A DNA stretch of 64,000 nucleotides from assembly GCF_035084215.1 (NCBI RefSeq), contig NW_027139217.1, forward strand, positions 186,001 through 250,000. Direction: 5' to 3'. Positions 15,224 through 64,000 of the stretch are shown piece after piece. The notes below the pieces were generated by a model that did no database searches, was not told the origin of the DNA, and saw nothing but the letters and a program-made list of their open reading frames with translations. The DNA comes from Heptranchias perlo. Lineage: Eukaryota. Both the position numbers and the translations under genes were made by a program. Every line of letters begins with the position of its first letter. Positions within the stretch are counted from its first letter, which is position 1.

Positions 15224-15270
15224 CTGCTGAAAGAGGAGAATCGTCCTCAAACTCATCAGCCCGAGCCTGA
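15224..15270 (+). CDS. Terminal cytoplasmic-tail exon of an upstream MHC class I paralogue
   Basis: Acceptor tttcttttcacag, then phase-1 (x)CT GCT GAA AGA GGA GAA TCG TCC TCA AAC TCA TCA GCC CGA GCC TGA = xAERGESSSNSSARA*. This resembles the Ser-rich ESSSNSS C-terminus I recall for shark class I tails. A possible donor G|gtacga follows the stop. Confidence 0.75.
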
Positions 15271-16289
15271 GGTACGAAGTCAATCACTTGAGTTTAACAG
15301 CAGCTGAACGAGCAGCAAACCAGGTTGTGAAGAGCAGTAACTGTGGGCTCAGGGGGTCGGGAGGGAGCTGCTTATATCTGACTGGACTGAGTCTCCTCAC
15401 TGGAACGCTGCTTTTTCACTGAATGTTTGTCGAGATTTCTCACTGAGTGAAACCCTGATTCCAGAACACAGTCTGTAAAAGACACAACCCCCAGGGGTGA
15501 AGTGGAATTCCTTTGACAGTCACGGTCCACCATTGATCAACTGGGGTTTAATACATCGCAGATCTGGCAATACGAGCTTTTTTTGTGGTAAGGAAGAGTT
15601 TTTTTGAACCCATCATCAGTGTGAATCAGGCCCAGGTGAGGTCAGGGAGAGAGTAAAGCTTCTCTCTGACCCCTGGAATCACCTGGTGACCTCTTGTTCT
15701 ATTAAAGGTGCCTGAGCTGCTGCAGCATCCACTTCCCTTCAGCTAACAAACTGAAGGTCCAATCGTTCTGGGCCATCGTCAGGCCGAGGCTTTAAGTGAA
15801 TATGTTGGGGGAGTGAGGAGGGAATTCCAGACGTCTGGCTGGGTTGTGGAGGTTAATATTCCTGGCAGCAGTGGAATGAATTAATTTAAACAGGGAGAAC
15901 TGGAGGTTTCGAAACCAGGACTGGTGAGCAACAAACTTCTGGGTCCCGTCAGCTGCTCAGTGAGACCCTGCAGCTGTTTAATATACTGGAGGATGGAATC
16001 TGTCACCTTGAGAGGGGGAGCTGGTTGTGCTGAGGATTTGAGGATGGGGATTATACCTCACCTAGGACCCTGGGCCTTAGACTGACCCATTGTGCAGTGT
16101 ACCTTGTGACACTATGCTGGAACACTCGGTCTTCTCTGAGATCTGGTGCTCCTGGAGAGGTTTGATGGGAAGGATTGTGTCCTGGGCTGGGCTGGCCGTG
16201 TTCACTCACATTGCTGCAATCTTTACTTGTGTCTGTAGGGGGCCTGTCCCGTGGCACCTGGAACGGCCACCAATGGTGGGGTGAAGGGA

Positions 16290-16562
16290 GTGGGGGTGGA
16301 CAAGAGGCCAGAATTGGAGGAACGCAGAGATCTCGGAGGGTTGTAGGGCTGGAGGAGGTTACAGAGATAGGGAGGGGGCGAGGGCCATGGAGGGATTTGA
16401 AAACAAGGATGAGAATTTTAAAATCGAGGCGTTCCTGGACCGGGAGCCAGTGTAGGTCAGTGAGCACAGGGGGTGATGGGAGAACGGGACTTGGTGAGAG
16501 TTAGGATACGGGAGCAGAGTTTTGGATGAGTTGAAGTTTACGGAGGGTGGAAGGTGGGAGGA
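16290..16562 (-). mobile_element. L2/CR1-clade LINE ORF2 3' fragment
   Basis: Translates as LTDLHWLPVQERLDFKILILVFKSLHG, a typical L2 ORF2 C-terminus. Confidence 0.8.
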
Positions 16563-16860
16563 TGAAGGGAGCTGATCACTCCTTGATTCTGGGTGCAGTG
16601 CAGTCCGAACAAAGGTTGTGTGTATTTGGCGACTGAATGATGGAGTAAATTTAGTTACTGAGTATTGTTAACATCTGTAATCGAAATTGGGATTGTGTAT
16701 TGAGTATTTATTTTTGTTGTAATAAAAGGAACAAAAAGGGAAGGACTCTTTGTGTCTGTGACTAAGTTTGTCTAATTTTATCGAAGTTTATCGAAGTTTC
16801 TCTCTCCACTCTGTACCTTGTTTAAGCCGAGCCTCACAGGGTTAATGAGAAAATGCTTCA
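16563..16860 (+). repeat. 5' LTR, copy 1
   Basis: TG...CA. Direct repeat of 22731-23028. Contains AATAAA. Confidence 0.8.
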
Positions 16861-17650
16861 GGTTTCAGTGCGTGACGTGGATCCTGAGTTTAAAAGGAGT
16901 GTAAACTACCGCAGACAGTGAGCTCTGTCTGAGCTCAGTGCTGTTATGGCCGATATGGAAGGACAAATATCTGCCCATATAGCTGAGAAACTTCCGAAGT
17001 GGGAGGAAGAGTTTCAGGGCATGGAAAGCCAGGCAGACACGATGAGGGCGTGTCAGGGGAGATTTCATCAATTAATTCAGGACAAGGAACTTAAAGAGAA
17101 ACAAGAGAAAGCCGTATGGTTCTTAGCGATGGGCATTCAGTCCAAAACAAGGACGGAGCGGCAGGAGAAGAAGGTTGTTTTTCGGACTGGAGGGAGGTGG
17201 AGCACCGAAACAACGGGCGATACACGGGCCAATTTAGCGCCCAGAGGGTTTTGAAAAAGAACTGGGAATGAAGGAAGAGATTTTTAAACAGGAGCAGAGA
17301 GACAAGGAAAAGGCTTTGGACAAAGAGGGGAAGAATAAAGAGATGGTGGAGAGACGAGTCCAGTCTCTCGAAAACCACGTTGAGTATTTCCAGACAAAGG
17401 TTCTCAGTGAGGACAGAGAACTTGAGAGATTTAAAGCTCTGAATAATAATCAGGAACTCTTGTGTTTGAAATTGCGAAGAGAACATGGTGATTTCTGAGC
17501 AACAGTGAGAAGCCAGTTTGAGTTGGTTAAACAGGTTGGGGAGGGAGATGAAGTGAGTCGCACTCACTGTCAGCGAGAGACACTAAAGTTCCCGGCGGTG
17601 TTGAGAGTAAAAGGGGGGATAGTGTGAACGATAGTGCCGCCTGGTGAAGA

Positions 17651-17997
17651 CCACTGAGGGTCTAAAAATACCATCAGGGGCCCACCGAGGGTCTAAAAAT
17701 ACCATCAGGGGCCCACCGAGGGTCTAAAAATACCATCAGGGGCCCACTGAGGGTCTAAAAATACCATCAGGGGCCCACTGAGGGTCTAAAAATACCATCA
17801 GGGGCCCACCGAGGGTCTAAAAATACCATCAGGGGCCCACTGAGGGTCTAAAAATACCATCAGGGGCCCACTGAGGGTCTAAAAATACCATCAGGGGCCC
17901 ACTGAGAGTCTAAAAATACCATCAGGGGCCCACTGAGGGTCTAAAAATACCATCAGGGGCCCACTGAGGGTCTAAAAATACCATCAGGGGCCCAGTG
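17651..17997. repeat. 31-bp minisatellite inside gag
   Basis: gagggtctaaaaataccatcaggggcccact, ~11 copies. Confidence 0.97.
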
Positions 17998-18605
17998 AAT
18001 ATCGCGAGGTGTTTGCCAATCGATTATAACGACTCTATGATCGGGTGTACGGTCCAGGATTGAACGGTGGGTCTTCGGGCAGCGTCCCACAGTGAGCCAC
18101 TGGTTTAGAAGCCTGAACGGTCAGGCCCGACCCTATTTGCCGTCTGCCCTTGTGGGATTCGATCCCAGAGGAGGCGAACCAGAGTGAGGCGTGGGTCCTT
18201 CAGAGAATGACCCGAACCTGGGAAAACCGGAAAGTGGGTGGTGAGCCCAGGGTAAGTCTGGTCACAGCTCGGAAAAATGAGGGACCAGGGACTCAGAAAC
18301 AGGGTCAGGATAAGAAAGGGAGCGGGAAACCAACAGAAAAACCCATAAATACAAGTGTCAGGGTGAGAGGGAGCAGTGGGATGAAATGTTCCAACTGTAG
18401 GGAGACGGGACACCTTGCTCGGGACTGTGGGCAGGACTGGAAGGGAGATCAGGCTGGTGAGGAAAGAGGCCGGGCAGGATTGGACCCTGACTTGGCAGAG
18501 TTTGGGAGAGAGCTCGATAACACATTCCATGGGGCGATTCCGAGTGTCCCCGGCACCAGGATCACTGATGGAGGGAGACAGGAGAGGAGACAAAGAGACG
18601 GGGTC

Positions 18606-19570
18606 CGGGCACAGTCACCCGGGGGGAGGGGGGTCACAGTGACCCGGGGGGAGGGTCACAGTGACCCGGGGGGAGGGGGGGTCACAGTGACCCGGGGGGG
18701 GGAGGGTCCGGTCACAGTGACCCGGGGGGGAGGGGGTCACAGTGACCCGGGGGAGGGGGGGGTCACAGTGACCCGGGGGAGGGGGGGTCACAGTGACCCG
18801 GGGGGAGGGGGGTCACAGTGACCCGGGGGGAGGGTCCGGTCACAGTGACCCGGGGGGGGGAGGGTCCGGTCACAGTGACCCGGGGGGGAGGGGGTCACAG
18901 TGACCCGGGGGGGGGAGGGTCCGGTCACAGTGACCCGCGGGGGGAGGGTCACAGTGACCCGGGTAGGGGGGGGGGTGGTCACAGTGACCCGGGGGAGGGG
19001 AGGGTCTCAGTGACCCGGGGGAGGGGAGGGTCCGGTCACAGTGACCGGGGGAGGGGAGGGTCCGGTCACAGTGACCGGGGGAGGGGAGGGTCACAGTGAC
19101 CCGGGGGAGGGGAGGGTCCGGTCACAGTGACCGGGGGAGGGGAGGGTCACAATGACCCGGGGGAGGGGAGGGTCACAGTGACCCGGGGGAGGGGAGGGTC
19201 CGGTCACAGTGACCGGGGGAGGGGAGGGTCACAATGACCCGGGGGAGGGGAGGGTCCGGTCACAGTGACCCGGGGGAAGGGAGGGTCACAGTGACCCGGG
19301 GGAGGGGAGGGTCCGGTCACAGTGACCCGGGGGAGGGGAGGGTCCGGTCACAGTGACCCGGGGGAAGGGAGGGTCACAGTGACCTGGGGGAGGGGAGGGT
19401 CCGGTCACAGTGACCCGGGGGAGGGGAGGGTCCGGTCACAGTGACCCGGGGGAGGGGAGGGTCCGGTCACAGTGACCCGGGGGAGGGGAGGGTCCGGTCA
19501 CAGTGACCCGGGGGAGGGGAGGGTCCGGTCACAGTGACCCGGGGGAGGGGAGGGTCACAGTGACCCCGGG
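18606..19570. repeat. G-rich minisatellite with palindrome GGTCACAGTGACC
   Basis: ggtcacagtgacccgggggaggggagggtcc-type units of ~23-31 bp, roughly 30+ copies. Confidence 0.97.
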
Positions 19571-21051
19571 CGGGGTGGGGGGAGGATGGGAAAAGCAGAG
19601 CCCGAGGGAAAGGACAAACACTGCCGGAGTTCCCCAGGCTCCCTCAGTAAAGGTGGTCCCATCTTTCCTGGGTTCGGGTGGGTATTGGAGGGACTGGACA
19701 GCAGACTCTGTGACTCTCAGCACTCCCTTATTTGCCTTGCTAAAGACGGATGCGCCCTGGGACTGGACGCCTGCCTGCACAGAGGCAGTGGGGAAACTAA
19801 AAGCTGCTCTTCACACAGCTCCCGTCTTACAACAGCCACCCCAGAAGGCCCTTCCTCACTCCAAGTGGCAGTTTCCGAGTTTGCTCTGCCAGCTGGATTG
19901 CTGCAGGAGACACCGGGGAAGTTGTGTCCTGTAGCGTGTGTCTCCTGGGTCCTAAGGCCGGTCCAGGTTAATTATTCAGCAGGTGAAGGGCACGTCTCGG
20001 CCACATTCTGGACCGGTGCAGCTTTTCACTGACATCATTGGCCGAGCTCCCCTGCATTTGTTCACATCTCACTCCCCGACCGAGTTATTGTTCGATGGGA
20101 GATTGAAAGATGGGTCAGTCTCAATAACTGACCAGTGAGGTGGACCTTCCTCCTCCAGGGTAGAGATACCGTGGACAAACACACCAGAGACTGACCCGAA
20201 CTGACCCGGAAAGCTGCTGTATCAGGGTCGGCCCCACCGTTATAAGGTAACCACCGATCTGGGGAATGGACCGATTCAAGGCCCAGAAAATTCCCAACTC
20301 TACTCCAGTGTTTGTTGGCGGCTCCTGACGAGCAAAGAGAGGGGTTACACCTAACTGGCTGTGGGATATATTTCCACAACAGGGAAAGGAGATCTCCCGA
20401 CTGTGACCATCCCCCCTCTGGGCTCAAACAGCTGAATCAGCAGTGATTATCGAGATGATGACCCAGATGAGCCAGGTTCAGCTCCCAGCCGCCATCGATT
20501 CAGATTCCCGGACGGAATCCTCACCCATCTGGGAAAAGAGAGGTTTTCCATCAGCGGATGGGAAGCTTTTCCCATCGGCCCCCCCCACTACTTCAGTCCG
20601 TTTCCTCACACATTAAATCGTACGCAGGGCAAATTACATCACAGAAAGTTAAAGCTCACACCAGGAACGAGAGTGGGTGGGAAGGAAATGAGAGGGCAGA
20701 GCAGTTGGTCAAAGAAGGGGGAGAGAATGGAATTCAGTGGGACCCTCGAACGAGAGCTTCCCCAGCAGAGATTGTGACCTTCCTGAAAGATCCTCTGACT
20801 CTGGGGGATTTGAAGGAGACGCAGGCTGAGGAGATCCAAATCCAGCAAGTGATTAATTCACTGGAGGAGGGAATCTCCCCTCCGAGCCCGGGTGAAGGGA
20901 GAAAGGGATTAACAGTTAAGGCTGGTTTATTATTCCGGGTCGGAGCATGGGTCGGACTGGAGGGCTTAAGGAATCACTTCCTTTATCAGGCACACCAGGC
21001 ACCTACAGTGTGACATTCTGGTCCAGTCACAACTCTCACCCCATTAAAGGG

Positions 21052-21433
21052 GCAGTCTGGTGATCTGGCAGTCTGGTGATCTGACAGTCTGGTGATCTGG
21101 CAGTCTGGTGATCTGGCAGTCTGGTGATCTGCCGGTCTGGTGATCTGGTGTTCTGTTGATCTGGCAGTCTGGTGATCTGGCAGTCTGTTGATCTGGCAGT
21201 CCGGTGATCTGGCGGTCTGGTGATCTGGCGGTCTGGTGATCTGGCGGTCTGGTGATCTGGCAGTCTGGTGATCTGGCGGTCTGGTGATCTGCCGGTCTGG
21301 TGATCTGGCGGTCTGGTGATCTGGCGGTCTGGTGATCTGGCAGTCTGGTGATCTGGCAGTCTGGTGATCTGGTGGTCTGGTGATCTGGCGGTCTGGTGAT
21401 CTGACAGTCCGGTGATCTGACAGTCCGGTGATC
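21052..21433. repeat. 16-bp minisatellite in the integrase region
   Basis: ctggtgatctggcagt repeats. Confidence 0.97.
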
Positions 21434-22730
21434 CATTGATTCAGACCAAGGAAGTCATTTCACCGGGGAGGAGATGCAGCACGCTGGGGGTTAAAATGTA
21501 CGTTGATGGAAAAGTGCGGCCTATGGAATGGGACAGATCGGCCAACAGGTTCTGGTCAAGACTTATGACCAGACCGGCCCATTCTCTGCGACCTATCAAG
21601 GCCCAGACCCATAGTGGACAAGGCCAGCCCATCGCTGTACAAGGTGATGATGGGCAAAAGGAAAAGTGGTTCCATGTTAACCAGCGAAAAGCATTTCCCA
21701 ACCAGAATCCGCCCCCAGCAGGTTCAATAAATGAAATCCCATTGGACAATATCCCACGGGGGGAACGACCCCGGTGTTGGGACGATGAGCCCTTCCCCCG
21801 AGCTCCATCGTCCTCACCAGAGAGAAGGGGCCGACAGCAATTGAGAGGGAGACGACTATCTCTCCCTGCCCAGGATGTCATTAAAGGGGAAGCGATCCTG
21901 GGGACAACCCTTATGAGGTTCCGAAGGGAAAGAGAGGGAGGATCAGGGATTAACAAAGAACAGCCATTACTGCCCGTGTTTTCTCTTTCTCCTGATGTGT
22001 AGACTGTTAAAGACCAAGTCTCCTGGGGTGGCTGTTCAACATGAAACTATCAACACTTCTCAATATCTCCATCTGGGTCTACGGATACACAACGTCCTAA
22101 GTCAGACCACTTCTGCCCACTGGGACTCTCCACAACTGATACACCCCCCAAATGTTTGGAGATCATGAGTGGTGGAGATTGTTTATAACATTGGACAATA
22201 TCCGTGGGTCAGGATCACATCGATGTTGTTTTTGATAATTCAGATTGGACTGGTGATTGTTACACTCGGGATTTTTAAATCGACCTGACACAGACAGAGA
22301 CAAATAGTCCCTGCTCGACAACAAGTGGAAATGGAACGGTGATATGGCTTCCACCAATGATCATCCTTTGTCTAATGTCCTGTTAGATACTGCACAAGTG
22401 TGAGTATCCGTTCGTTCAGACTGTACGAGCACTCGACAATCAGCGATGATCAGATCACTCATTAAAAGTGGATCTGGATCAATCTGATCCACTCGAGGAG
22501 GGAGTGTCGAGATTGATGAATAAAAGGACTGAAGGGAAATGTTGACGGTCAGCGTGCTGGTGCATCATGGGATATTTGACCATGTTGTGCTCCACTGTGT
22601 TGAGCGAGAGACATTCTTTGTAAATTTAACAGTGACCTTGTCTTCGAGCGATCCTGTGGAAACTTAATGTGGGACAGAAACCGCCTACGAGGAAGAAGAG
22701 CTCAGACGTGTGTGGGGGAACCTCCAGAGA

Positions 22731-23028
22731 TGGAGGGAGCTGATCACTCCTTGATTCTGGGTGCAGTGCAGTCCGAACAAAGGTTCCGTGGATTTGGCCA
22801 CTGAAAGATATTGTAAATTTAGTGACTGAGTTTTGTTAAACTCTGTAATCGAAATTGGGATTGTGTATTGAGTATTTATTTTTGTTTTAATAAAGTGAAC
22901 AAAAAGGGAAGTACTCTTTGCGTCTGACTAATTTTATCTAATTGTATCTCTAAGTTTATCTAAGTTGATCACTCTGCTCAGTAACTTGTTTAAGCCGAGC
23001 CTCACAGGGTTAATGGGAAACTCCGACA
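22731..23028 (+). repeat. 3' LTR, copy 1
   Basis: Diverged direct repeat of 16563-16860, same length. Confidence 0.8.
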
Positions 23029-42992: not shown

Positions 42993-43041
42993 ATGATTGG
43001 ACTGATAGTTCTGGTCGTTCTGTGTGGAGGGGTCTCTGCAG
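42993..43041 (+). CDS. MHC class I alpha chain exon 1 (signal peptide)
   Basis: ATG...MIGLIVLVVLCGGVSA G|gtgagt. Hydrophobic leader with a phase-1 donor. Confidence 0.88.
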
Positions 43042-46303: not shown

Positions 46304-46564
46304 GCTCTCACTCTCTCCGGTATTTTCTGACCGCAATGACCCCGATCCCTGGTCTGCCGGAGTTTGTTGCTGTCGGGTATGCGGACGAGGCCCAGTTTGT
46401 GATGTACGACAGCGAGCGGAGGGAGTTGATCCCACGGCTGTGGTGGATGGAGGAGAGGGAGGGGCCCGAGAACTGGGAGCGGAAGAAACAGCTGGTGCGA
46501 GGCGAGGAACAGTGGATGAAGGATTATATTCAGATCCTCCTGACCCGGACCAACCAGTCGGTCG
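46304..46564 (+). CDS. MHC class I exon 2 (alpha1 domain), shark UAA-lineage-like
   Basis: tttcag| GSHSLRYFLTAMTPIPGLPEFVAVGYADEAQFVMYDSERRELIPRLWWMEEREGPENWERKKQLVRGEEQWMKDYIQILLTRTNQSVG |gtgagt. 261 nt, with the NQS glycosylation site. Confidence 0.97.
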
Positions 46565-49960: not shown

Positions 49961-49979
49961 ACTCCCCACCCCCCCCGCA

Positions 49980-50303: not shown

Positions 50304-50304
50304 C

Positions 50305-50558: not shown

Positions 50559-50599
50559 GTAATAAAGTTTCAATACTCTACAGGGAGTGGGCTGGTTTA

Positions 50600-51790: not shown

Positions 51791-51839
51791 CACACCTCTT
51801 ACTATAAGTTCAGGAACGATCGGGACACTCGCTGGGAGC

Positions 51840-53462
51840 ACGGGGGGTCCTTTAAATACACAGATTGAGGTCCGGGGGTCCCTTAAATATACAGATTGAG
51901 GTTCGGGGGTCCTTTAAATACACTGATCGGGGTCCGGGGGGTCCTTTAAATACACTGATCGTGGTCCGGGGATCCTTTAAATACACTGATCGGGGTCTGG
52001 GGGTCCTTTAAATACACTGATCGGGGTCCGGGGGGGTCCTTTAAATACACAGATCGGGGTCCGGGGGTCCTTTAAATACACAGATCGGGGTCCGGGGGTC
52101 CTTTAAATACACTGATCGTGGTCCGGGGGTCCTTTAAATACACTGATCGGGGTCCGGGGGATCCTTTAAATACACTGATCGGGGTCCGGGGGTCCTTTAA
52201 ATACACAGATCGTGGTCCGGGGATCCTTTAAATACACTGATCGGGGTCCGGGGATCCTTTAAATACACTGATCGGGGTCCGGGGATCCTTTAAATACACT
52301 GATCAGGGTCCGGGGGGTCCTTTAAATACACAGATCGTGGTCCGGGGATCCTTTAAATACACTGATCGGGGTCCAGGGATCCTTTAAATACACTGATCGG
52401 GGTCCGGGGGGTCCTTTAAATACACTGATCGGGGTCCGGGGATCCTTTAAATACATTGATCGGGGTCCGGGGGTCCTTTAAATACACTGATCGGGGTCCG
52501 GGGGTCCTTTAAATACACTGATCGGGGTCCGGGGGTCCTTTTAATACACTGATCGAGGTCCGGGGGGTCCTTTAAATACACTGATCGTGGTCCGGGGGGT
52601 CCTTTAAATACACTTATCGGGGTCTGGGGGTCCTTTAAATACATTGATCGAGGTCCGGGGGTCCTTTAAATACATTGATCGGTGTCCAGGGGGTCCTTTA
52701 AATACACTGATCGGGGTCCGGGGGTCCTTTAAATACACTGATCGGGGTCCGGGGGTCCTTTAAATACACTGATCGAGGTCCGGGGGATCCTTTAAATACA
52801 CTGATCGGGGTCCAGGGGGTCCTTTAAATGCACTGATCGGGGTCCGGGGGATCCTTTAAATACACTGATCGGGGTCCAGGGGTCCTTTAAATACACTGAT
52901 CGGGGTCCGGGGGTCCTTTAAATAAACTGATCGGGGTCCGGGGGTCCTTTAAATACACTGATCGGGGTCCAGGGGTCCTTTAAATACACTGATCGGGGTC
53001 CGGGGGTCCTTTAAATACACTGATCGGGGTCCGGGGGGTCCTTTAAATACACTGATCGGGGTCCGGCGGTCCTTTAAATAAACTGATCGAGGTCCGGGGG
53101 TCCTTTAAATACATTGATCGGTGTCCAGGGGGTCCTTTAAATACACTGATCAGGGTCCGGGGGTCCTTTAAATACACTGATCGGGGTCCGGGGGATCCTT
53201 TAAATACACTGATCGGAGTCCGGGGGTCCTTTAAATACACTGATCGGGGTCCGGGGGTCCTTTAAATACACTGATCGGGGTCCCGGGGTCCTTTAAATAC
53301 ACTGATCGGGGTCCGGGGGTCCTTTAAATACACTGATCGGGGTCCGGGGATCCTTTAAATACACTGATCGGGGTCCGGGGGGTCCTTTAAATACACTGAT
53401 CAGGGTCCGGGGGTCCTTTAAATACACTGGTTGGGGTCCGGGGGTCCTTTAAATACACTGAT
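51840..53462. repeat. ~31-bp minisatellite
   Basis: gggggtcctttaaatacactgatcggggtcc, ~50 copies. Confidence 0.98.
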
Positions 53463-53605
53463 TGTCTCCGTAACCCATCTGCCCACTGCCCCCCTCCCAC
53501 CACCCCCGGCTTCCCAGGTGATTTCCGACTGTGAGCTGGGTGGTGATGGGATGGTGGACGGGGTCTCGGACTGGGTCTGACTGACCCCCTGTGTTTGATT
53601 GACAG

Positions 53606-53878
53606 GAATCCACATGATCCAGCAGATGACCGGCTGTGATCTGGGGGATGATGGGATCACCAGTGGGTTCTTTCAGTACGCCTGGGACGGGGAGGATTTC
53701 ATCAACTTCGACAGGGATCAGATGGTGTGGGTAACACCGGTACAGTGGGGAGAGATCACCAAGAACAGGTGGGACCAGGACACGCCCCGGAACCAAGGGG
53801 TGAAGGGATACCTGGAGGGGGAGTGCATCGAGTGGCTGAGGAAATACCTGGAGTACGGAGAGAGGGAACTGAGGGCCG
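53606..53878 (+). CDS. MHC class I exon 3 (alpha2 domain)
   Basis: gacag| IHMIQQMTGCDLGDDGITSGFFQYAWDGEDFINFDRDQMVWVTPVQWGEITKNRWDQDTPRNQGVKGYLEGECIEWLRKYLEYGERELRA |gtgagt. 273 nt, both cysteines present. Confidence 0.97.
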
Positions 53879-54354
53879 GTGAGTGAGGGGGGAGTGAGAG
53901 TCGGTGAGTGAGGGGGGAGTGAGAGTCGGTGAGTGAGGGGGGAGTGAGAGTCGGTGAGTGAGGGGGGACTGAGAGTCGGTGAGTGAGGGGGGAGTGAGAG
54001 TCGGTGAGTGAGGGGGGAGTGAGAGTCGGTGAGTGAGGGGGGGAGTGAGAGTCGGTGAGTGAGGGGTGACTGAGAGTCGGTGAGTGAGGGGGGAGTGAGA
54101 GTCGGTGAGTGAAGGGGGGGACTGAGAGTCGGTGAGTGAGGGGGGAGTGAGAGTCGGTGAGTGAAGGGGGGGACTGAGAGTCGGTGAGTGAGGGGGGACT
54201 GAGAGTCGGGGAGTGAGGGGAGGAGTGAGATTCGGTGAGTGAGGGGGGGAGTGAGAGTCAGTGAGTGAGGGGGGGACTGAGAGTCGGTGAGTGAGGGGGG
54301 AGTGAGAGTCGGTGAGTGAGGGGGGAGTGAGAGTCGGTGAGTGAGGGGGGGACT
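53877..54354. repeat. ~25-bp minisatellite built from the exon 3 donor site
   Basis: cggtgagtgaggggggagtgagagt, ~19 copies. Confidence 0.97.
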
Positions 54355-54641
54355 GGGGTCTGATCCCCAATTTAAAGGGGTTTGTCCCGTTCCCTGGGGT
54401 CTAATCCCCAGTTTAAAGGGGTTTGTCCCATTCCCTGGGGTCTCATCCCCAGTTTAAAGGGGTTTGTCCCGTTCCCTGGGGTCTAATCCCCAGTTTAAAG
54501 GGGTTTGTCCCGTTCCCTGGGGTCTAATCCCCAGTTTAAAGGGGTTTGTCCCGTTCCCTGGGGTCTAATCCCCAGTTTAAAGGGGTTTGTCCCGTTCCCT
54601 GGGGTCTAATCCCCAGTTTAAAGGGGTTTGTACCGTTCCCT
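54355..54641. repeat. 41-bp minisatellite
   Basis: ccctggggtctaatccccagtttaaaggggtttgtcccgtt, ~7 copies. Confidence 0.96.
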
Positions 54642-54680
54642 GTCTCACACTGACTCGGCTCTGATCTGTTTTACTCTCAG

Positions 54681-54956
54681 TTACTCCCCAAGTGTTTCTT
54701 TCTGTGGACAAGGCCTCAGACACTAAACCGGCCCAACTCTCCTGCCTGGTCACGGGGTTTTACCCTCGAGATATCGAACTCACCCTCCTGAGAAATGGAC
54801 GGCCGATCTCAGACACTGATTCCACTGGCATCCTGCCCAACCACGATGGCACCTACCAGATCAAGAGATGGGTTGAGATCGGGCCCGAGGACGGAGCCAC
54901 CTACTCCTGTCAGGTGGATCACAGCAGCAAAGCAGGAGTGGAGACCCGAGACTGGG
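54681..54956 (+). CDS. MHC class I exon 4 (alpha3 Ig C1 domain)
   Basis: ctctcag| VTPQVFLSVDKASDTKPAQLSCLVTGFYPRDIELTLLRNG...ILPNHDGTYQIKRW...YSCQVDHSS...RDW |gtaaga. 276 nt. Confidence 0.97.
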
Positions 54957-55009
54957 GTAAGAGGATCAGTGAGTGCAGGGGGAGAGTCTGAGGCTGAGGA
55001 TTAAAGATG

Positions 55010-55205
55010 TTTCTATCGCCTCTCCTCATTCTTCCTTCCAAAATACATCACTTCACACTTCTCTGTGTTAAATTTCATCTGCCATGTGTCTGCCCATTTC
55101 ACCAGTCTGTCTGTGTCCTCCTGAACTCTGTTACTATCCTCCACATTGTTTACTACATTTCCGAGTTTCGTGTCAGCTGCAAACTTTGAAATTATACCCT
55201 CTGTA
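55010..55205 (-). mobile_element. CR1 RT fragment
   Basis: Reverse complement of the KFA(A)DTK...WQMKFN..KCEVM region. Confidence 0.75.
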
Positions 55206-55733
55206 CCTGTGACGGGGAAATTTTATTCAGAAATACAAGAGATTTCCAAACCTGCCTGTCTATAATGAGCAGCACCATATATCTGGGTTACACTGAGTTA
55301 TTGACTGGCTGGGATCTGTGTGTCAGGTGAAGGAGGCCGTTAGTCCATTGAACTCCTCAACCTTCCATAGAAAGGCCGTATCACCCATCAGTATACTTCC
55401 ACCAGCTGACTCTGAGACTGTGCTGGGGATTCATCACTTGTGGAGGGGACTAGTAATGACTTTGGACTGATGGGTAATTCCAATATCTGCAGACAAGCAA
55501 CAACTTGTATTTATAAAGTGCCTTTAATGGAGAGAAACGTCCCAAAGTGCTTCCCAGGAGTGGAATCAAAGCCACGCTGAACTTTCTAACCTCCAACTTG
55601 CTCTGATCAGACTGCCCATCACATCGCAGACTCGAATCGAACTCAGTCTCAGGCACAGCTTTGGTCTCATTACTTCCTAATCAGCAGCGACTGTCGTTAT
55701 TCATTTCTCTCCTCCTCCTTATTCCCCCCACAG

Positions 55734-55870
55734 ATGGGACGTTCCGAGTGACTCCGGGATCTTCAGAGGGACCGAATCTGGGTTTAATTGTTGGAATTGT
55801 TCTTGCTGCCGTCGTCCTGATTGCTCTCGTCATTGGTGCCGTTGTCTGGAAGAAGAGAGGTAGGAAATGA
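55734..55870 (+). CDS. MHC class I exon 5 (connecting peptide and TM). Donor possible after 55859, or read-through to TGA at 55868-55870
   Basis: ccccacag| DGTFRVTPGSSEGPNLGLIVGIVLAAVVLIALVIGAVVWKKR G|gtagga. Read-through adds GRK* and gives a 331-aa protein. Confidence 0.92.
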
Positions 55871-55986
55871 GGACAGGATCTGTCCCACACGGGGATGAGC
55901 AGGTTCAAATGTTACAGCACAAATGGCAGAACATTAGAGACTTCCCATAGACATGTGGGAAACTCCGACACAGTCCAGTGATGGAC

Positions 55987-56394
55987 AGGGACCCGTACAG
56001 GGAGTGAAGGGACCGGGGCCCCGTACAGGGAGTGAAGGGACCGGGGCCCCGTACGGGGAGTGAAGGGACCGGGGCCCCGTACAGGGAGTGAAGGGACCGG
56101 GGCCCCGTACAGGGAGTGAAGGGACCGGGGCCCCGTACATGGAGTGAAGGGACCGGGGCCCCGTACAGGGAGTGAAGGGACCGGGGCCCCGTACAGGGAG
56201 TGAAGGGACCGGGGCCCCGTACAGGGAGTGAAGGGACCGGGGCCCCGTACAGGGAGTGAAGGGACCGGGGCCCCGTACAGGGAGTGAAGGGACCGGGGCC
56301 CCGTACGGGGAGTGAAGGGACCGGAGCCCTGTACATGGAGTGAAGGGACCGGGGCCCCGTACAGGGAGTGAAGGGACCGGGGCCCCGTACAGGG
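55987..56394. repeat. 28-bp minisatellite
   Basis: gggaccggggccccgtacagggagtgaa, ~14 copies. Confidence 0.97.
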
Positions 56395-56669
56395 AATGGG
56401 AGGCGGACAAGAGGCACAATTTGGAGGAACGCAGAGATCTCGGAGGGTTGTAGGGCTGGAGGAGGTTACAGAGATAGGGAGGGGGCGAGGGCCATGGAGG
56501 GATTTGAAAACAAGGATGAGAATTTTAAAATCGAGGCGTTCCCGGACCGGGAGCCAGTGTAGGTCAGTGAGCACAGGGGGTGCTGGGAGATCGGGACTTG
56601 GTGTGAGTTAGGATACGGGAGCAGAGTTTTGGATGAGTTGAAGTTTACGGAGGGTGGAAGGTGGGAGGA
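56395..56669 (-). mobile_element. L2/CR1-clade LINE fragment
   Basis: LTDLHWLPVRERLDFKILILVFKSLHG. Confidence 0.8.
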
Positions 56670-59600
56670 TGGAGGGAGCTGATCACTCCTTGATTCTGGG
56701 TGCAGTGCAGTCCGAACAAAGGTTGTGTGTATTTGGCGACTGAATGATGGAGTAAATTTAGTTACTGAGTATTGTTAACATCTGTAATCGAAATTGGGAT
56801 TGTGTATTGAGTGTTTATTTTTGTTGTAATAAAAGGAACAAAAAGGGAAGTACTCTTTGTGTCTGTGACTAAGTTTGTCTAATTTTATCGACGTTTATCG
56901 AAGTTTCTCTCTCCACTCTGTACCTTGTTTAAGCCGAGCCTCACAGGGTTAATGAGAAAATGCTTCAGGTTTCAGTGCGTGACGTGGATCCTGAGTTTAA
57001 AAGGAGTGTAAACTACCGCAGACAGTGAGCTCTGTCTGAGCTCAGTGCTGTTATGGCCGATATGGAAGGACAAATATCTGCCCATATAGCTGAGAAACTT
57101 CCGAAGTGGGAGGAAGAGTTTCAGGGCATGGAAAGCCAGGCAGACACGATGAGGGCGTGTCAGGGGAGATTTCATCAATTAATTCAGGACAAGGAACTTA
57201 AAGAGAAACAAGAGAAAGCCGTATGGTTCTTAGCGATGGGCATTCAGTCCAAAACAAGGACGGAGCGGCAGGAGAAGAAGGTTGTTTTTCGGACTGGAGG
57301 GAGGTGGAGCACCGAAACAACGGGCGATACACGGGCCAATTTAGCGCCCAGAGGGTTTTGAAAAAGAACTGGGAATGAAGGAAGAGATTTTTAAACAGGA
57401 GCAGAGAGACAAGGAAAAGGCTTTGGACAAAGAGGGGAAGAATAAAGAGATGGTGGAGAGACGAGTCCAGTCTCTCGAAAACCACGTTGAGTATTTCCAG
57501 ACAAAGGTTCTCAGTGAGGACGGAGAACTTGAGAGATTTAAAGCTCTGAATAATAATCAGGAACTCTTGTGTTTGAAATTGCGAAGAGAACATGGTGATT
57601 TCTGAGCAACAGTGAGAAGCCAGTTTGAGTAAGTTAAACAGGTTGGGGAGGGAGATGAAGTGAGTCGCACTCACTGTCAGCGAGAGACACTAAAGTTCCC
57701 GGCGGTGTTGAGAGTAAAAGGGGGGATAGTGTGAACGATAGTGCCGCCTGGTGAAGAGGGGGAAGGAAGGGAGTTGGATGAGGGAGACTGGGAAGATTTG
57801 GCAGGGAAGGCAGCACAGTCCCATAGTGGGGATTGTGAGCCCAGACTCAGAGAGCTGCCCCCACCTATGGAGCCAGTGATTCAGGTAAAGAGAGAGGACG
57901 CAGACAGAGACCCAGGAGAGGTAGTGAGTCACTATGTAGGACTGGATAGTCAGCAGGTCCTTCAGGAACGAGCCAAACAAGTCCCCGAGTTTGACAGGAG
58001 AGGGGACGTGATGAGACATTGTGTAGAAGGGGAACAAACGGCTGTGCCCAGCGGCATGGATGATGGGGGGAAGTGAGATTGTTACCGTGGACCTTGGGGG
58101 GGCTGTTTGGAGCGCTGACAGCAAACGGTAAAAATGGTTCCGGGGATTGGCGACAAACACAGGAAGCTGGATTAACAGTGATCGGGTTTAATAGACGGGA
58201 ACACACCGAGGGTCTAAAAATACCATCAGGGGCCCACTGAGGGTCTAAAAATACCATCAGGGGCCCACTGAGGGTCTAAAAATACCATCAGGGGCCCACT
58301 GAGAGTCTAAAAATACCATCAGGGGCCCACTGAGGGTCTAAAAATACCATCAGGGGCCCACTGAGGGTCTAAAAATACCATCAGGGGCCCACTGAGGGTC
58401 TAAAAATACCATCAGGGGCCCACTGAGAGTCTAAAAATACCATCAGGGGCCCACTGAGGGTCTAAAAATACCATCAGGGGCCCACTGAGGGTCTAAAAAT
58501 ACCATCAGGGGCCCACTGAGGGTCTAAAAATACCATCAGGGGCCCACTGAGGGTCTAAAAATACCATCAGGGGCCCACTGAGAGTCTAAAAATACCATCA
58601 GGGGCCCACTGAGGGTCTAAAAATACCATCAGGGGCCCACTGAATATCGCGAGGTGTTTGCCAATCGATTATAACGACTCTATGATCGGGTGTACGGTCC
58701 AGGATTGAACGGTGGGTCTTCGGGCAGCGTCCCACAGTGAGCCACTGGTTTAGAAGCCTGAACGGTCAGGCCCGACCCTATTTGCCGTCTGCCCTTGTGG
58801 GATTCGATCCCAGAGGAGGCGAACCAGAGTGAGGCGTGGGTCCTTCAGAGAATGACCCGAACCTGGGAAAACCGGAAAGTGGGTGGTGAGCCCAGGGTAA
58901 GTCTGGTCACAGCTCGGAAAAATGAGGGACCAGGGACTCAGAAACAGGGTCAGGATAAGAAAGGGAGCGGGAAACCAACAGAAAAACCCATAAATACAAG
59001 TGTCAGGGTGAGAGGGAGCAGTGGGATGAAATGTTCCAACTGTAGGGAGACGGGACACCTTGCTCGGGACTGTGGGCAGGACTGGAAGGGAGATCAGGCT
59101 GGTGAGGAAAGAGGCCGGGCAGGATTGGACCCTGACTTGGCAGAGTTTGGGAGAGAGCTCGATAACACATTCCATGGGGCGATTCCGAGTGTCCCCGGCA
59201 CCAGGATCACTGATGGTGGGAGACAAGAGAGGAGACAAAGAGACGGGGTCCGGGCACAGTGACCCGGGGGGAGGGGGGTCACAGTGACCCGGGGGAGGGG
59301 GGGTCACAGTGACCCGGGGGAGGGGGGGGTCACAGTGACCCGGGGGAGGGGGGGGTCACAGTGACCCGAGGGAGGGGGGGTCACAGTGACCCGGGGGGGG
59401 GGGTCACAGTGAACCGGGGGGGAGGGTCCGGTCACAGTGACCCGGGGGGGAGGGTCCGGTCACCGTGACCCGGGGGAGGGGAGAGTCACAGTGAACCGGG
59501 GGGGGGGGTCACAGTGACCCGGGGGGGGTCACGGTGACCCGGGGGGGGAATGTCCGGTCACAGTCACCCGGGGGGGGGTCACAGTCACCCGGGGGAGGGG

Positions 59601-62600
59601 GGGGTCACAGTGACCCGGGGGAGGGGAGGGTCCAATCACAGTGACCGGGGGGAGGGGAGGGTCCGATCACAGTGACCGGGGGGAGGGGAGGGTCTCAGTG
59701 ACCCGGGGGAGGAGAGGGTCCGGTCACAGTGACCCGGGGGAGGGGGGGGTCACAGTGACCCGGGGGAGGGGAGGGTCCAATCACAGTGACCGGGGGGAGG
59801 GGAGGGTCCGGTCACAGTGACCCGGGGGAGGGGAGGGTCACAGTGACCCGGGGGAGGGGAGGGTCCAATCACAGTGACCGGGGGGAGGGGAGGTTCCGGT
59901 CACAGTGACCCGGGGGAGGGGAGGGTCCGGTCACAGTGACCCGGGGGAGGGGAGGGTCACAGTGACCCCGGGCGGGGTGGGGGGAGGATGGGAAAAGCAG
60001 AGCCCGAGGGAAAGGACAAACACTGCCGGAGTTCCCCAGGCTCCCTCAGTAAAGGTGGTCCCATCTTTCCTGGGTTCGGGTGGGTATTGGAGGGACTGGA
60101 CAGCAGACTCTGTGACTCTCAGCACTCCCTTATTTGCCTTGCTAAAGACGGATGCGCCCTGGGACTGGACGCCTGCCTGCACAGAGGCAGTGGGGAAACT
60201 AAAAGCTGCTCTTCACACAGCTCCCGTCTTACAACAGCCACCCCAGAAGGCCCTTCCTCACTCCAAGTGGCAGTTTCCGAGTTTGCTCTGCCAGCTGGAT
60301 TGCTGCAGGAGACACCGGGGAAGTTGTGTCCTGTAGCGTGTGTCTCCTGGGTCCTAAGGCCGGTCCAGGTTAATTATTCAGCAGGTGAAGGGCACGTCTC
60401 AGCCACATTCTGGACCGGTGCAGCTTTTCACTGACATCATTGGCCGAGCATTTGTTCACATCTCACTCCCCGACCGAGTTATTGTTCGATGGGAGATTGA
60501 AAGATGGGTCAGTCTCAATAACTGACCAGTGAGGTGGACCTTCCTCCTCCAGGGTAGAGATACCGTGGACAAACACACCAGAGACTGACCCGAACTGACC
60601 CGGAAAGCTGCTGTATCAGGGTCGGCCCCACCGTTATAAGGTAACCACCGATCTGGGGAATGGACCGATTCAAGGCCCAGAAAATTCCCAACTCTACTCC
60701 AGTGTTTGTTGGCGGCTCCTGACGAGCAAAGAGAGGGGTTACACCTAACTGGCTGTGGGATATATTTCCACAACAGGGAAAGGAGATCTCCCGACTGTGA
60801 CCATCCCCGCTCTGGGCTCAAACAGCTGAATCAGCAGTGATTATCGAGATGATGACCCAGATGAGCCAGGTTCAGCTCCCAGCCGCCATCGATTCAGATT
60901 CCCGGACGGAATCCTCACCCATCTGGGAAAAGAGAGGTTTTCCATCAGCGGATGGGAAGCTTTTCCCATCGGCCCCCCCCACTACTTCAGTCCGTTTCCT
61001 CACACATTAAATCGTACGCAGGGCAAATTACATCACAGAAAGTTAAAGCTCACACCAGGAACGGGAGTGGGTGGGAAGGAAATGAGAGGGCAGAGCAGTT
61101 GGTCAAAGAAGGGGGAGAGAATGGAATTCAGTGGGACCCTCGAACGAGAGCTTCCCCAGCAGAGATTGTGACCTTCCTGAAAGATCCTCTGACTCTGGGG
61201 GATTTGAAGGAGACGCAGGCTGAGGAGATCCAAATCCAGCAAGTGATTAATTCACTGGAGGAGGGAATCTCCCCTCCGAGCCCGGGTGAAGGGAGAAAGG
61301 GATTAACAGTTAAGGCTGGTTTATTATTCCGGGTCGGAGCATGGGTCGGACTGGAGGGCTTAAGGAATCACTTCCTTTATCAGGCACACCAGGCACCTAC
61401 AGTGTGACATTCTGGTCCAGTCACAACTCTCACCCCATTAAAGGGGCAGTCTGGTGATCTGACAGTCTGGTGATCTGACAGTCTGGTGATCTGGCAGTGT
61501 GGTGATCTGGCAGTCTGGTGATCTGGCAGTCTGGTGATCTGACGGTCCGGTGATCTGCCGGTCTGGTGATCTGGCAGTCTGGTGATCTGGCAGTCTGGTT
61601 ATCTGGCAGTCTGGTGATCTGGCAGTCCGGTGATCTGGCAGTCTGGTGATCTGCCAGTCCGGTGATCTGGCGGTCTGGTGATCTGGCGGTCTGGTGATCT
61701 GGCAGTCTGGTGGTCTGGTGATCTGGCAGTCTGGTGATCTGACAGTCCGGTGATCCATTGATTCAGACCAAGGAAGTCATTTCACCGGGGAGGAGATGCA
61801 GCACGCTGGGGGTTAAAATGTACGTTAATGGAAAAGTGCGGCCTGTGGAATGGGACAGATCGGCCAACAGGTTCTGGTCAAGACTTATGACCAGACCGGC
61901 CCATTCTCTGCGACCTATCAAGGCCCAGACCCATAGTGGACAAGGCCAGCCCATCGCTGTACAAGGTGATGATGGGCAAAAGGAAAAGTGGTTCCATGTT
62001 AACCAGCGAAAAGCATTTCCCAACCAGAATCCGCCCCCAGCAGGTTCAATAAATGAAATCCCATTGGACAATATCCCATGGGGGGAACGACCCCGGTGTT
62101 GGGACGATGAGCCCTTCCCCCGAGCTCCATCGTCATCACCAGAGAGAAGGGGCCGACAGCAATTGAGAGGGAGACGACTATCTCTCCCTGCCCAGGATGT
62201 CATTAAAGGGGAAGCGATCCTGGGGACAACCCTTATGAGGTTCCGAAGGGAAAGAGAGGGAGGATCAGGGATTAACAAAGAACAGCCATTACTGCCCGTG
62301 TTTTCTCTTTCTCCTGATGTGTAGACTGTTAAAGACCAAGTCTCCTGGGGTGGCTGTTCAACATGAAACGATCAACACTTCTCAATATCTCCATCTGGGT
62401 CTACGGATACACAACGTCCTAAGTCAGACCACTTCTGCCCACTGGGACTCTCCACAACTGATACACCCCCCAAATGTTTGGAGATCATGAAGGGTGGAGA
62501 TTGTTTATAACATTGGACAATATCCGTGGGTCAGGATCACATCGATGTTGTTATTGATAATTCAGATTGGACTGGTGATTGTTGCACTCGGGATTTTTAA

Positions 62601-64000
62601 ATCGACCTGACACAGACAGAGACAAATAGTCCCTGCTCGACAACAAGTGGAAATGGAACGGTGATATGGCTTCCACCAATGATCATCCTTTGTCTAATGT
62701 CCTGTTAGATACTGCACAAGTGTGAGTATCCGTTCGTTCAGACTGTACGAGCACTCGACAATCAGCGATGATCAGATCACTCATTAAAAGTGGATCTGGA
62801 TCAATCTGATCCACTCGAGGAGGGAGTGTCGAGATTGATGAATAAAAGGACTGAAGGGAAATGTTGAAGGTCAGCATGCTGGTGCATCATGGGATATTTG
62901 ACCATGTTGTGCTCCACTGTGTTGAGCGAGAGACATTCTTTGTAAATTTAACAGTGACCTTGTCTTCGAGCGATCCTGTGGAAACTTAATGTGGGACAGA
63001 AACCGCCTACGAGGAAGAAGAGCTCAGACGCGTGTGGGGGAACCTCCAGAGATGGAGGGAGCTGATCACTCCTTGATTCTGGGTGCAGTACAGTCCGAAC
63101 AAAGGTTGCATGGATTTGGCCACTGAATGATATTGTAAATTTAGTTACTGAGTTTTGTTAAACTCTGTAATCGAAATTGGGATTGTGTATTGAGTATTTA
63201 TTTTTGTTTTAATAAAGTGAACAAAAAGGGAAGTACTCTTTGCGTCTGACTAATTTTATCTCTAAGTTTATCTAAGTTGAGCCGAGCCTCACAGGGTTAA
63301 TGGGAAACTCCGACACTGGGGATTGACTCTGGGCCCTGCCTGGTGTGTGACTCAGAGAGTTCACCCAGTCAGTAGCTGAGCCCAGGGACAATCCCCAGTC
63401 TGCAATCCCCCATCGGAGAACTCATCTCTTCCCCTTTCTGTTCCTCACTATCACCCGTCACTAATCACAAAACACACACTTACTGAGTTTTCCTCCACAT
63501 TTATTTCCAGATGTTAAACTTCTCACATTTGAGGTGTTGAAATAACGTGACTCTTAAAACATACAAAGATACGAGAAATGACGGCCAGGAAAAGACACTC
63601 TGGTCCATCAAGCCTGACCCACAACTACCAAGCCTTGTGTATCACAATATATCGACTCCCCACCCCACCCGAGACCACGTGATCTCCTGGGAGAGGCAGA
63701 AAAACAGATTAAAAACACAGGCAATTTGGGGAAATAAATCGGGGAAATTCCTCTCCGACCCCCTTAGGCGATGGGAACTCGTCCAGGAGATCACTCTGGC
63801 CCTGATACGGCCCTGCATTACAAGGCGATTGCTTTTCCACTCCTACTCTGCGGACACCATCTGAACACAGGGTCTCGGAGCCTGGTCTCCGACCATCTCC
63901 AGTCCAGCTCTGTCCCAGCAGACACTCCCTGAACATTCGGCAATGATTGAAACCAGTCGGTGGATTGTCCAGAGTTCCCACTTCCGTCTCGTGACAGCTT
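56407..64000 (+). repeat. Segmental (tandem) duplication of 16300-23713
   Basis: Colinear, near-identical sequence including the flank beyond the 3' LTR. Offset ~40.1-40.3 kb. Runs to the window end. Confidence 0.97.
56670..63315 (+). mobile_element. Degenerate LTR retroelement, copy 2 (LTRs 56670-56967 and 63053-63315)
   Basis: Nearly identical to 16563-23028. It has the same internal minisatellites (58205-58642, 59250-59970, 61446-61755) with different copy numbers. Confidence 0.88.

What the first reader, a model, noticed from the sequence alone, without database searches (positions are those of the whole stretch)
55734..56967. Class I gene appears to have lost its cytoplasmic exons by LINE-mediated recombination (tail-less MHC-I, possibly using an LTR polyA site)
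Seen: in copy 1 the L2+LTR block starts ~1 kb downstream of a terminal cytoplasmic exon (15224-15270). In copy 2 the same block starts ~550 bp after the TM exon, and I see no cytoplasmic exon in 55860-64000. The shared sequence begins inside an L2 fragment, where the two copies differ more densely than in the retroelement. Inference: recombination between an intron-5 L2 and the downstream L2 deleted the tail exons. TM read-through gives ...WKKRGRK* (331 aa), and the sense LTR offers AATAAA at ~56828. Known: short tails, as in HLA-G, alter endocytosis and recycling. A speculative alternative is splicing to tttccag|63511, giving the tail DVKLLTFEVLK*.
Basis: partly seen in the sequence, partly recalled or inferred. 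Interest (0 to 1): 0.72.

Follow-up and report, generated by a model that had tools for sequence, protein, structure and literature searches.

The report
Shark MHC gene borrows retroelement tail
Three near-identical copies of a shark antigen-presenting (MHC class I) gene, this one included, have lost the two exons for their inner tail, and RNA from these copies splices instead into a decayed retroelement that supplies a two-residue ending and likely the transcript's end, which would give a short-tailed protein predicted to stay longer on the cell surface, as human HLA-G does.

Summary
The gene (copy D of a tandem shark class Ia-like array) lacks cytoplasmic exons 6 and 7. The same junction stands in two other copies (B, E), so a mis-assembly is unlikely. 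The proposed LINE-by-LINE recombination is not supported: intact copies have no LINE in intron 5. The break joins an intron-5 minisatellite to the downstream LINE at an 8-nt microhomology, the best match among 1,451 positions. RNA contigs of the same animal (2 of 4 runs) splice the TM exon to an acceptor at 62325 inside the LTR element, giving ...WKKRDC*. The alleles are those of the deleted copies B/E, and a D-specific 3' LTR piece is transcribed too. The transcript probably ends in the 3' LTR, not at 56828 (untested) or via 63511. Two more copies lost their tails by other breaks, so 5 of 11 are tail-less. Function is untested: copy E carries a stop codon, and KKRDC fails the canonical KKxx rule. 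Verdict: a new variant of known kinds (retroelement exonisation; HLA-G-like short tail).

The parts
15224..15270 (+). Exon 7 (last cytoplasmic exon, AERGESSSNSSARA*) of intact paralogue C; its exon 6 lies about 46 kb upstream, outside the window
16278..16294 (+). Site in the intact copy that best resembles the minisatellite unit (15 of 17 nt; exact 8-mer AGGGAGTG at 16285): the distal breakpoint
16561..23020 (+). Paralogous copy of the decayed LTR element behind intact gene C (same acceptor at 22003)
42993..43041 (+). Exon 1, leader peptide of gene D
46304..46564 (+). Exon 2, alpha1 domain (Y59 replaced by N; numbering recalled)
53606..53878 (+). Exon 3, alpha2 domain (K146 replaced by R; numbering recalled)
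54681..54956 (+). Exon 4, alpha3 domain; spliced to 55734 in all four RNA runs (family-wide signal)
55734..55859 (+). Exon 5, connecting peptide and transmembrane segment ending WKKR; donor at 55859
55860..55870 (+). Read-through into intron 5, GRK* (331-aa form); present in all paralogues, seen in RNA but not assignable to D
55986..56398 (+). G-rich 28-nt minisatellite of intron 5 (14 units in D; 13-57 in nine copies counted); proximal breakpoint
56391..56422 (+). Deletion junction: microhomology (7 of 8 nt kept) followed by a patch of about 6 changes; identical in copies B, D, E
56423..56667 (-). Antisense LINE fragment (L2-like by a recalled ORF2 motif; no Pfam hit), 98% identical to the one behind intact copies A and C
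56668..56960 (+). 5' LTR, about 50 bp shorter at its start than the 3' LTR; AATAAA at 56828 (use not tested)
56961..62324 (+). Decayed internal part of the LTR retroelement (zinc knuckle at about 59029-59073, RT/RNase H remnants; many stops and inserted tandem repeats); intronic in the spliced RNA
62325..63240 (+). New terminal exon: acceptor after a pyrimidine tract, codes D-C-stop (62325-62332), then about 0.9 kb of 3' UTR; the 3' end is approximate
62998..63315 (+). 3' LTR with AATAAA at 63211, the likely poly(A) signal

Best explanation
This class I gene and two sister copies lost both cytoplasmic exons in one deletion, likely by microhomology-driven repair starting in an intron-5 minisatellite, and RNA of these copies splices the transmembrane exon into a downstream LTR retroelement, which encodes the ending WKKRDC and likely supplies the poly(A) site; the protein would lack the tyrosine internalisation motif and is predicted to be internalised slowly. 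Shown: the deletion, its sharing by copies B, D and E, the absence of a LINE in intron 5 of intact copies, the splice to 62325, and deleted-copy alleles on the spliced RNA. Inferred: the repair route (about 0.7); that D itself uses the acceptor (about 0.7); the 3' end at the 3' LTR (about 0.7); a mixture with the read-through form WKKRGRK; protein synthesis and slower endocytosis (about 0.5). Most likely this is recent birth-and-death turnover in a repeat-rich array, rescued into stable transcripts by the retroelement, with no sign so far of selection for the new tail.
For: The junction occurs 3 times, behind B, D, E, which also share an intron-4 allele absent from the other 8 copies (55203). 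Intact copies have minisatellite, exon 6, microsatellite, exon 7. The breakpoint falls on the best minisatellite match of 1,451 positions. Two other tail losses also start in tandem repeats (G in the intron-6 microsatellite, I1161 in the same minisatellite). RNA contigs in X5 and X6 join the TM exon to 62325 (loose end at 55859, 28 TM letters on contigs of 786 and 406 nt), while the DNA run's contig goes straight through. The 786-nt contig carries the B/E-only alleles 62506G, 62513A and 63015G and none of the A-only or C-only alleles. A 116-nt contig identical to D's 3' LTR has depth 470 against 123 upstream of the acceptor, and its diagnostic 51-mer is unique in the genome. Automated annotation independently models gene B with WKKRDC (P0019). 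The exon-6 tyrosine motif YXXA controls endocytosis in mouse class I (PMC2532750, passages); intact copies have YSPA there.
Against: All RNA is from one animal and one study, held only as contigs that drop minor variants and cannot show ends or levels. No contig joins a D-specific allele directly to the splice. The splice was listed for 2 of 4 runs and 2 of 3 RNA runs; X7 gave one unspliced contig through the acceptor. The annotation models D only as the read-through form (P0021). No poly(A) tail was seen. About 6 changes just behind the junction are not explained by a clean microhomology join. Copy E has a stop in alpha2 and 11 of 13 variable codons among B-F are non-synonymous, so nothing shows purifying selection. 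No protein evidence.
Confidence: 0.72

Rival explanations
1. One reading: a short L2 copy once sat in intron 5 of the ancestor of B, D and E and recombined with the downstream L2, leaving about 30 nt of the other copy at the junction.
For: About 6 changes cluster in the first 30 nt of the LINE piece against 4 in the next 245. One LINE elsewhere (G000:C5) shares the 18-mer variant.
Against: No LINE in intron 5 of four intact copies read in full. The minisatellite runs directly into the junction, which sits on the best minisatellite match of the flank. The C5 copy differs on both sides of the 18-mer. The independent deletion in G also shows changes right at its junction.
Confidence: 0.12
2. The copies are decaying pseudogenes: the splice is only the default next acceptor, and the protein is unstable or of no consequence.
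For: E has a nonsense codon; D has Y59N, K146R and V-to-A in the conserved YVD; no synonymous excess. 5 of 11 copies lost tails by three different breaks that coincide with unstable repeats, and a retrocopy and other rearrangements show rapid turnover.
Against: B and D keep open frames and canonical splice sites. The spliced stop lies in the last exon, so decay of the message is not expected (established knowledge), and the spliced contigs are deep relative to the flanking intron (a weak measure).
Confidence: 0.4
3. Gene D itself is expressed mainly as the unspliced read-through form WKKRGRK ending at the 5' LTR signal (56828), and only B uses the retroelement exon.
For: The annotation gives D only this form (P0021) and B both forms (P0019, P0023). 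Intron-5 read-through contigs exist in all four runs.
Against: The read-through contigs carry mostly 55949C, an allele of C, F, K526 and I1161, not of B, D or E. D's 3' LTR is transcribed more deeply than the sequence upstream of the acceptor in X5.
Confidence: 0.25
4. Assembly artefact at about 56400.
For: The contig is a repeat-rich tandem array with a masked or gapped stretch at 14973-15101, and one exon 7 on contig C1838 has no assigned gene. I did not lay reads on the junction itself.
Against: The same junction stands in three paralogues that differ in SNPs and repeat number and has its own variant letters. RNA with B/E alleles splices from the TM exon straight into the element.
Confidence: 0.03

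Closest known systems
HLA-G (and Mamu-AG / Paan-AG) short-tailed class Ib molecules
   Same: Class I heavy chain with a tail of 5-6 residues lacking the conserved tyrosine; two lysines at -4 and -5 from the end in both RKKSSD (PMC2931171, passages) and KKRDC. Reviews report slow endocytosis and an ER-retrieval motif for HLA-G (PMC12714902, PMC13100496, passages; the primary paper was not read).
   Different: HLA-G is truncated by a stop codon in exon 6 (recalled); here the exons are deleted and the ending comes from a retroelement. No orthology. No tissue restriction, receptor or function is shown here.
Retroelement exonisation of immune receptors: IL13RA1-LOR1a (PMC7617988) and CD274-L2A soluble PD-L1 (PMC6877088); abstracts read
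   Same: Splicing to a retroelement-derived terminal exon replaces the cytoplasmic (or TM) part and the 3' UTR.
   Different: Those are facultative isoforms of an intact single gene. Here the host exons are physically gone in a subset of paralogues, so the short tail is obligatory for them and full-tail copies sit alongside.
Shark classical class Ia (UAA) and the class Ia-like genes beside it (PMC10751288, passages; PDB 6LUP; Squalus Q8HWH7)
   Same: Best structure hit is the shark class I 6LUP (E 3e-99). alpha3, TM and tail of intact copies match Squalus Q8HWH7 and Pristiophorus (70-75% in alpha3).
   Different: At least 11 near-identical copies rather than one; 7 of 9 anchor residues in D; no tail. 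Linkage to TAP/PSMB genes was not examined.

Membership tests
MHC class I heavy chain | Leader, alpha1/alpha2 (PF00129), C1-set alpha3 (PF07654) and TM segment in an open frame | tested here: met
Shark UAA / class Ia lineage | Groups with class Ia sequences rather than with UBA-like or UCA-like non-classical ones | tested here: met
   alpha1/2 identity 59-68% to Triakis, Squalus and Pristiophorus against 23-38% to the two labelled non-classical proteins; tree of 26 chosen proteins, class Ia branch support 91/89, not starred. UDA and UEA references were not in hand.
Bona fide classical class Ia gene | All nine peptide-anchoring residues (set and numbering recalled) | tested here: not met
   7 of 9: Y59N and K146R in D and B; copy A keeps all but position 123
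Bona fide classical class Ia gene | Cytoplasmic tail with the exon-6 tyrosine | tested here: not met
Bona fide classical class Ia gene | Single copy next to TAP/PSMB8/9, high allelic polymorphism, ubiquitous expression | not tested
   Multi-copy is shown; linkage was not searched; one animal only
Canonical COPI dilysine motif (KKxx / KxKxx) | Lysine at -3 from the C terminus plus lysine at -4 or -5 | tested here: not met
   KKRDC has R at -3; KKRGRK has G at -3. PMC3521961 (passages) states that K at -3 is strictly required, arginine cannot replace it, and KKLIE does not bind beta'-COP.
HLA-G-like short-tailed class Ib (works like, not a member) | Tail of about 6 residues without the tyrosine motif | tested here: met
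HLA-G-like short-tailed class Ib (works like, not a member) | Slow endocytosis, ER retrieval, restricted tissue, inhibitory receptor | not testable with these tools
   needs cell assays and tissue data
Retroelement exonisation | Spliced RNA joins a host donor to an acceptor inside a retroelement and is absent as a DNA join | tested here: met
   (2 RNA runs; DNA contig runs through)
Retroelement exonisation | Transcript is polyadenylated at the element's signal | tested here: inconclusive
   Cover in X5 falls from 3174 to 214 to 16 across AATAAA 63211, but contigs cannot show an end and no poly(A) was listed
Endogenous retrovirus (as against Ty3/Gypsy) | env gene, primer-binding site, target-site duplication, retroviral RT | tested here: inconclusive
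   Two LTRs 88-89% alike, zf-CCHC E 6.5e-6, RT_RNaseH_2 E 0.001 (below cut-off), RNase H / integrase leads; no env family hit; no target-site duplication because the LINE does not resume. Filed only as a decayed LTR retroelement.
LINE-LINE non-allelic recombination | A homologous LINE on both sides of the lost segment in the intact allele | tested here: not met

The most novel reading that the evidence does not exclude
A shark is evolving an HLA-G-like non-classical class I subfamily in real time: unstable repeats cut the tail off class Ia-like genes three separate times, a retroelement gave one lineage a K-K-x-x-C ending with the same lysine spacing as HLA-G plus a new 3' UTR and a free cysteine, and the long-lived surface molecule with altered peptide anchors is being kept and amplified for an immune-regulatory role.
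Probability: 0.15. Interest if true: 0.78.

Novelty: new variant of a known kind. Interest (0 to 1): 0.5.

Why it matters
How non-classical class I genes arise from classical ones is usually inferred long after the event. Here tailed and tail-less copies that are 97-99% identical sit side by side, so the effect of the tail alone on trafficking can be tested in a cartilaginous fish. It also extends retroelement exonisation of immune receptors, described for human IL13RA1 and PD-L1, to an MHC gene in which the retroelement exon is obligatory. If the copies are only decaying, it remains a clean example of repeat-driven exon loss masked by a downstream acceptor.

Tried and rejected
Acceptor 63511 (tail DVKLLTFEVLK): no RNA cover at 63485-63559 in 3 RNA runs and no loose end listed; contigs do not prove absence, and the site also lies behind intact copies A and C. 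Tail exons beyond 64000: none in C1050 250001-610000, apart from those of genes F and G. L2-by-L2 route: rejected as above. Donor LINE for the junction patch: the 18-mer has 4 matches, 3 junctions and 1 unrelated LINE. The run search listed no holder on record as RNA; four runs guessed as RNA were used and show GT..AG exon joints. Typing the element: the gag-like frame found no homologue; four other family members matched only the LTR and a 3' piece, so conservation of the acceptor could not be judged; 'env acceptor' is therefore not claimed. Pfam gave no hit for the LINE frames. Canonical KKxx retrieval: rejected by spacing. The two shark lineage papers PMC7002201 and PMC8454915 are not held, so their text and supplements on shark tails were not seen. 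Earlier scan notes: none near, none by words, 8 of 32 shown for the genome and none on this array. No structure or complex prediction was run; it would not bear on a 5-residue tail.
Full report
Setting. The window is G000:C1050:186001-250000. The alpha3 exon has 11 matches at about 100% identity on five contigs, and the TM exon has the same 11 plus a diverged one. I fetched C1050 1-190000 and 250001-610000 and the regions around the other copies and mapped them. C1050 holds seven genes, which I call A to G; the finding is D. The others are H1057, I1161, J1654 and K526. Protein hits name the sharpnose sevengill shark Heptranchias perlo, and annotated proteins match A, B, C, D, F, G, H1057 and I1161 letter for letter in alpha1 and alpha2.

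Observation. D has five exons with canonical splice sites and an open frame, and read-through of the TM donor gives ...WKKRGRK*, 331 aa. Intact copies continue: about 125 bp, a G-rich 28-nt minisatellite, about 200 bp, exon 6 (GEKKSGYSPANP), a CT-rich microsatellite, exon 7 (AERGESSSNSSARA*), about 1 kb of flank, then the LINE piece. In D the minisatellite runs straight into the LINE piece. Exon 6 has 7 matches in the genome (A, C, F, G, H1057, J1654, K526). Exon 7 has 7 full matches (A, C, F, H1057, J1654, K526 and an orphan on C1838) plus a retrocopy. None lies behind D. The junction 26-mer occurs 3 times, behind B, D and E. These three differ in SNPs and in repeat number (35, 14, 53 units) and share the intron-4 allele 55203G, absent from the other 8 copies, so one deletion was followed by duplication. 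The lost piece is at least 2 kb measured on A, and about 48 kb measured on C.

Mechanism of the deletion. Four intact introns (A, C, F, K526) searched with 560 nt of the LINE gave at best 17 nt at E 0.3, and that hit is the minisatellite itself. Along 1,451 positions of the intact flank, the best 17-mer match to the minisatellite (15 of 17) starts at 16278, one of two 9-nt exact matches starts at 16281, and the crossover 8-mer AGGGAGTG starts at 16285. The break therefore sits on the top-ranked microhomology. About 6 changes follow within 30 nt, against 4 in the next 245; error-prone repair synthesis would explain this (inference from established knowledge), but a fragment of another LINE is not excluded. 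The variant 18-mer occurs once elsewhere, in a LINE that differs on both sides. Two further tail losses also begin in tandem repeats. G has an AG-to-CG change at the exon 6 acceptor and has lost exon 7 through a join from the microsatellite into a downstream insert. In I1161 the minisatellite joins other repeat DNA, no exon 6 follows in 19 kb, and the annotation uses three cryptic acceptors; a large insertion with an unassembled tail cannot be excluded there. So 5 of 11 copies lack a usable tail and 6 keep it.

What the RNA does. Four runs of the same animal, one study, guessed by the tool to be RNA, were laid on 54660-56013. All four join exon 4 to exon 5 at GT..AG. Loose ends at the TM donor read exon 6 in three runs (tailed copies) and, in X5 and X6, a sequence of 255 or more letters that begins at window 62325; the list was cut, with 164 rows not shown. 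That site follows a pyrimidine tract and AG, and gives ...WKKRDC*. On 61760-64000 (X5, X6, X7 and DNA run X1), X5 and X6 have contigs of 786 and 406 nt that start with 28 letters of the TM exon, at depths 1465 and 1001 against 123 and 76 upstream of the acceptor. X7 has one unspliced contig through the site, and the DNA contig also runs through. The 5 element copies behind A, B, C, D and E are the only near-identical ones in the genome and can be told apart. The X5 contig's 7 differences from D equal copy B over that stretch; they include three alleles found only in B and E and none private to A or C. Contigs keep the majority letter, so minorities are hidden. Where differences cluster, two contigs survive in X5: one identical to D over 116 nt (depth 470) and one of B/C/E type (1179). 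D's diagnostic 51-mer is unique in the genome. Because 470 exceeds the 123 upstream of the acceptor, D probably uses the acceptor too; this is indirect, rests on one run, and contig depth is a poor measure. Cover in X5 falls across AATAAA 63211 (3174, 214, 16), a weak hint of the end; the signals at 62783 and 62841 are read through. The read-through form also exists: contigs over 55832-55996 occur in all four runs, mostly with 55949C, the allele of C, F, K526 and I1161. The automated annotation agrees in part: B has WKKRDC and WKKRGRK isoforms, D and G only WKKRGRK.

The element. Two LTRs 88-89% alike, with 75-87% relatives on many chromosomes; a zinc knuckle (E 6.5e-6) and sub-threshold RT/RNase H hits among 12 frames scanned; an Atlas lead to RNase H / integrase clusters. 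It is broken by stops and tandem repeats. No env was shown and the LINE does not resume after the 3' LTR, so I file it only as a decayed LTR retroelement. It stands behind A to E and not behind F, G or the copies on other contigs, so it was there before the deletion.

The protein. It is class I by Pfam, and the best solved relative is shark 6LUP. In a tree of 26 proteins chosen from the 105 held, it falls with class Ia sequences, away from the two labelled non-classical ones. D keeps 7 of 9 anchor residues (numbering recalled): Y59N is shared with the tailed C and F, K146R with B. A nurse shark non-classical protein keeps these anchors too, so the test separates little. Among B to F, 11 of 13 variable codons change the residue, and E has a stop at codon 159. 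There is no sign of purifying selection, though the copies are too young for a real test.

How it likely works. The tailed form carries YSPA in exon 6. In mouse class I the exon-6 tyrosine (YXXA) drives endocytosis and access to cross-presentation compartments, and loss of exon 7 delays it (PMC2532750, passages). Both short forms lack these, so slower internalisation is predicted. KKRDC has lysines at -4 and -5 like HLA-G's RKKSSD (PMC2931171, passages), for which two reviews report an ER-retrieval motif (PMC12714902, PMC13100496, passages). Against this, PMC3521961 (passages) says a lysine at -3 is strictly required and that KKLIE does not bind beta'-COP; the two lysines are also simply the old stop-transfer residues. 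I give retrieval about 0.25. The terminal cysteine could be acylated or form dimers (speculation).

Novelty. Short-tailed class I (HLA-G, Mamu-AG) and retroelement terminal exons that truncate immune receptors (PMC7617988, PMC6877088; abstracts) are known, and class Ia-like gene clusters are mentioned for sharks (PMC10751288, passages; PMC12562908, passages). Five searches (listings only) showed no paper on a retroelement-derived class I tail or on this species' class I genes. Subscription papers are missing and two key shark papers with their supplements were not held. The sequences are already in automated annotation, without comment. I rate it a new variant of known kinds, real and partly RNA-supported, with function open: interest 0.5.

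Noticed in passing
window 1-15150 (G000:C1050 about 154800-201150): Intron 6 of gene C is a CT-rich satellite of about 46 kb; the same intron is about 11 kb in F and 0.7-0.8 kb in A and K526. The annotated C protein stops after alpha2 (P0020).
   Followed up: partly
G000:C1050 genes A-G and contigs C1057, C1161, C1654, C526: Leader, alpha3 and TM exons differ by 0-2 nt across copies while alpha1 differs by up to 70 of 261 nt and alpha2 by up to 30 of 273: strong homogenisation outside the groove, or groove exons exchanged.
   Followed up: partly
window 46304-54956: alpha1/alpha2 of B-G group with Mustelus, Cetorhinus and Scyliorhinus class Ia-like proteins (97/95) while alpha3 groups with Squalus, Pristiophorus and Heterodontus; another protein of this species (P0004) has A-like alpha1/2 on the other alpha3 type. 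Suggests domain shuffling between two class Ia-like lineages.
   Followed up: partly
L099 (G000:C20:51541925-51548070, minus strand): Processed pseudogene of this family: exons 3-7 joined without introns, 77-94% identity, split by a 5.6 kb insert in the TM exon.
   Followed up: yes
L031/L032 (G000:C1050:368850-370060), gene G: Independent tail loss: exon 6 acceptor AG to CG and exon 7 deleted between the microsatellite and a 600-bp insert, with a short shared word at the join.
   Followed up: yes
L056 1980-3800 (G000:C1161), gene I1161: Minisatellite joined to other repeat DNA; three annotated isoforms use cryptic acceptors. Its groove residues are classical-like.
   Followed up: partly
window 55860-55996: Read-through into intron 5 is far deeper in RNA contigs than intron 4 (about 1,100-2,600 against 24-113) and mostly carries the allele of C, F, K526 and I1161, so WKKRGRK may be a regular minor isoform of tailed genes too.
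   Followed up: partly
L023 (G000:C1050:283038-283310), gene E: TGG to TGA at codon 159 in alpha2: one of the three deleted copies is a pseudogene.
   Followed up: yes
window 36900-40260: A second decayed retroelement with Ty3/Gypsy-like reading frames (by eye, recalled motifs) sits upstream of the promoter in every array unit mapped that far.
   Followed up: no
window 47180-47260: A duplicated 3' end of exon 2 with its donor site lies in intron 2 (about 80% identity over 72 nt); its ending resembles that of the A-type alpha1 exons.
   Followed up: no
G000:C1101, C576, C519, C1438: Further alpha3-like matches at 68-73% identity: other class I lineages in the assembly.
   Followed up: no
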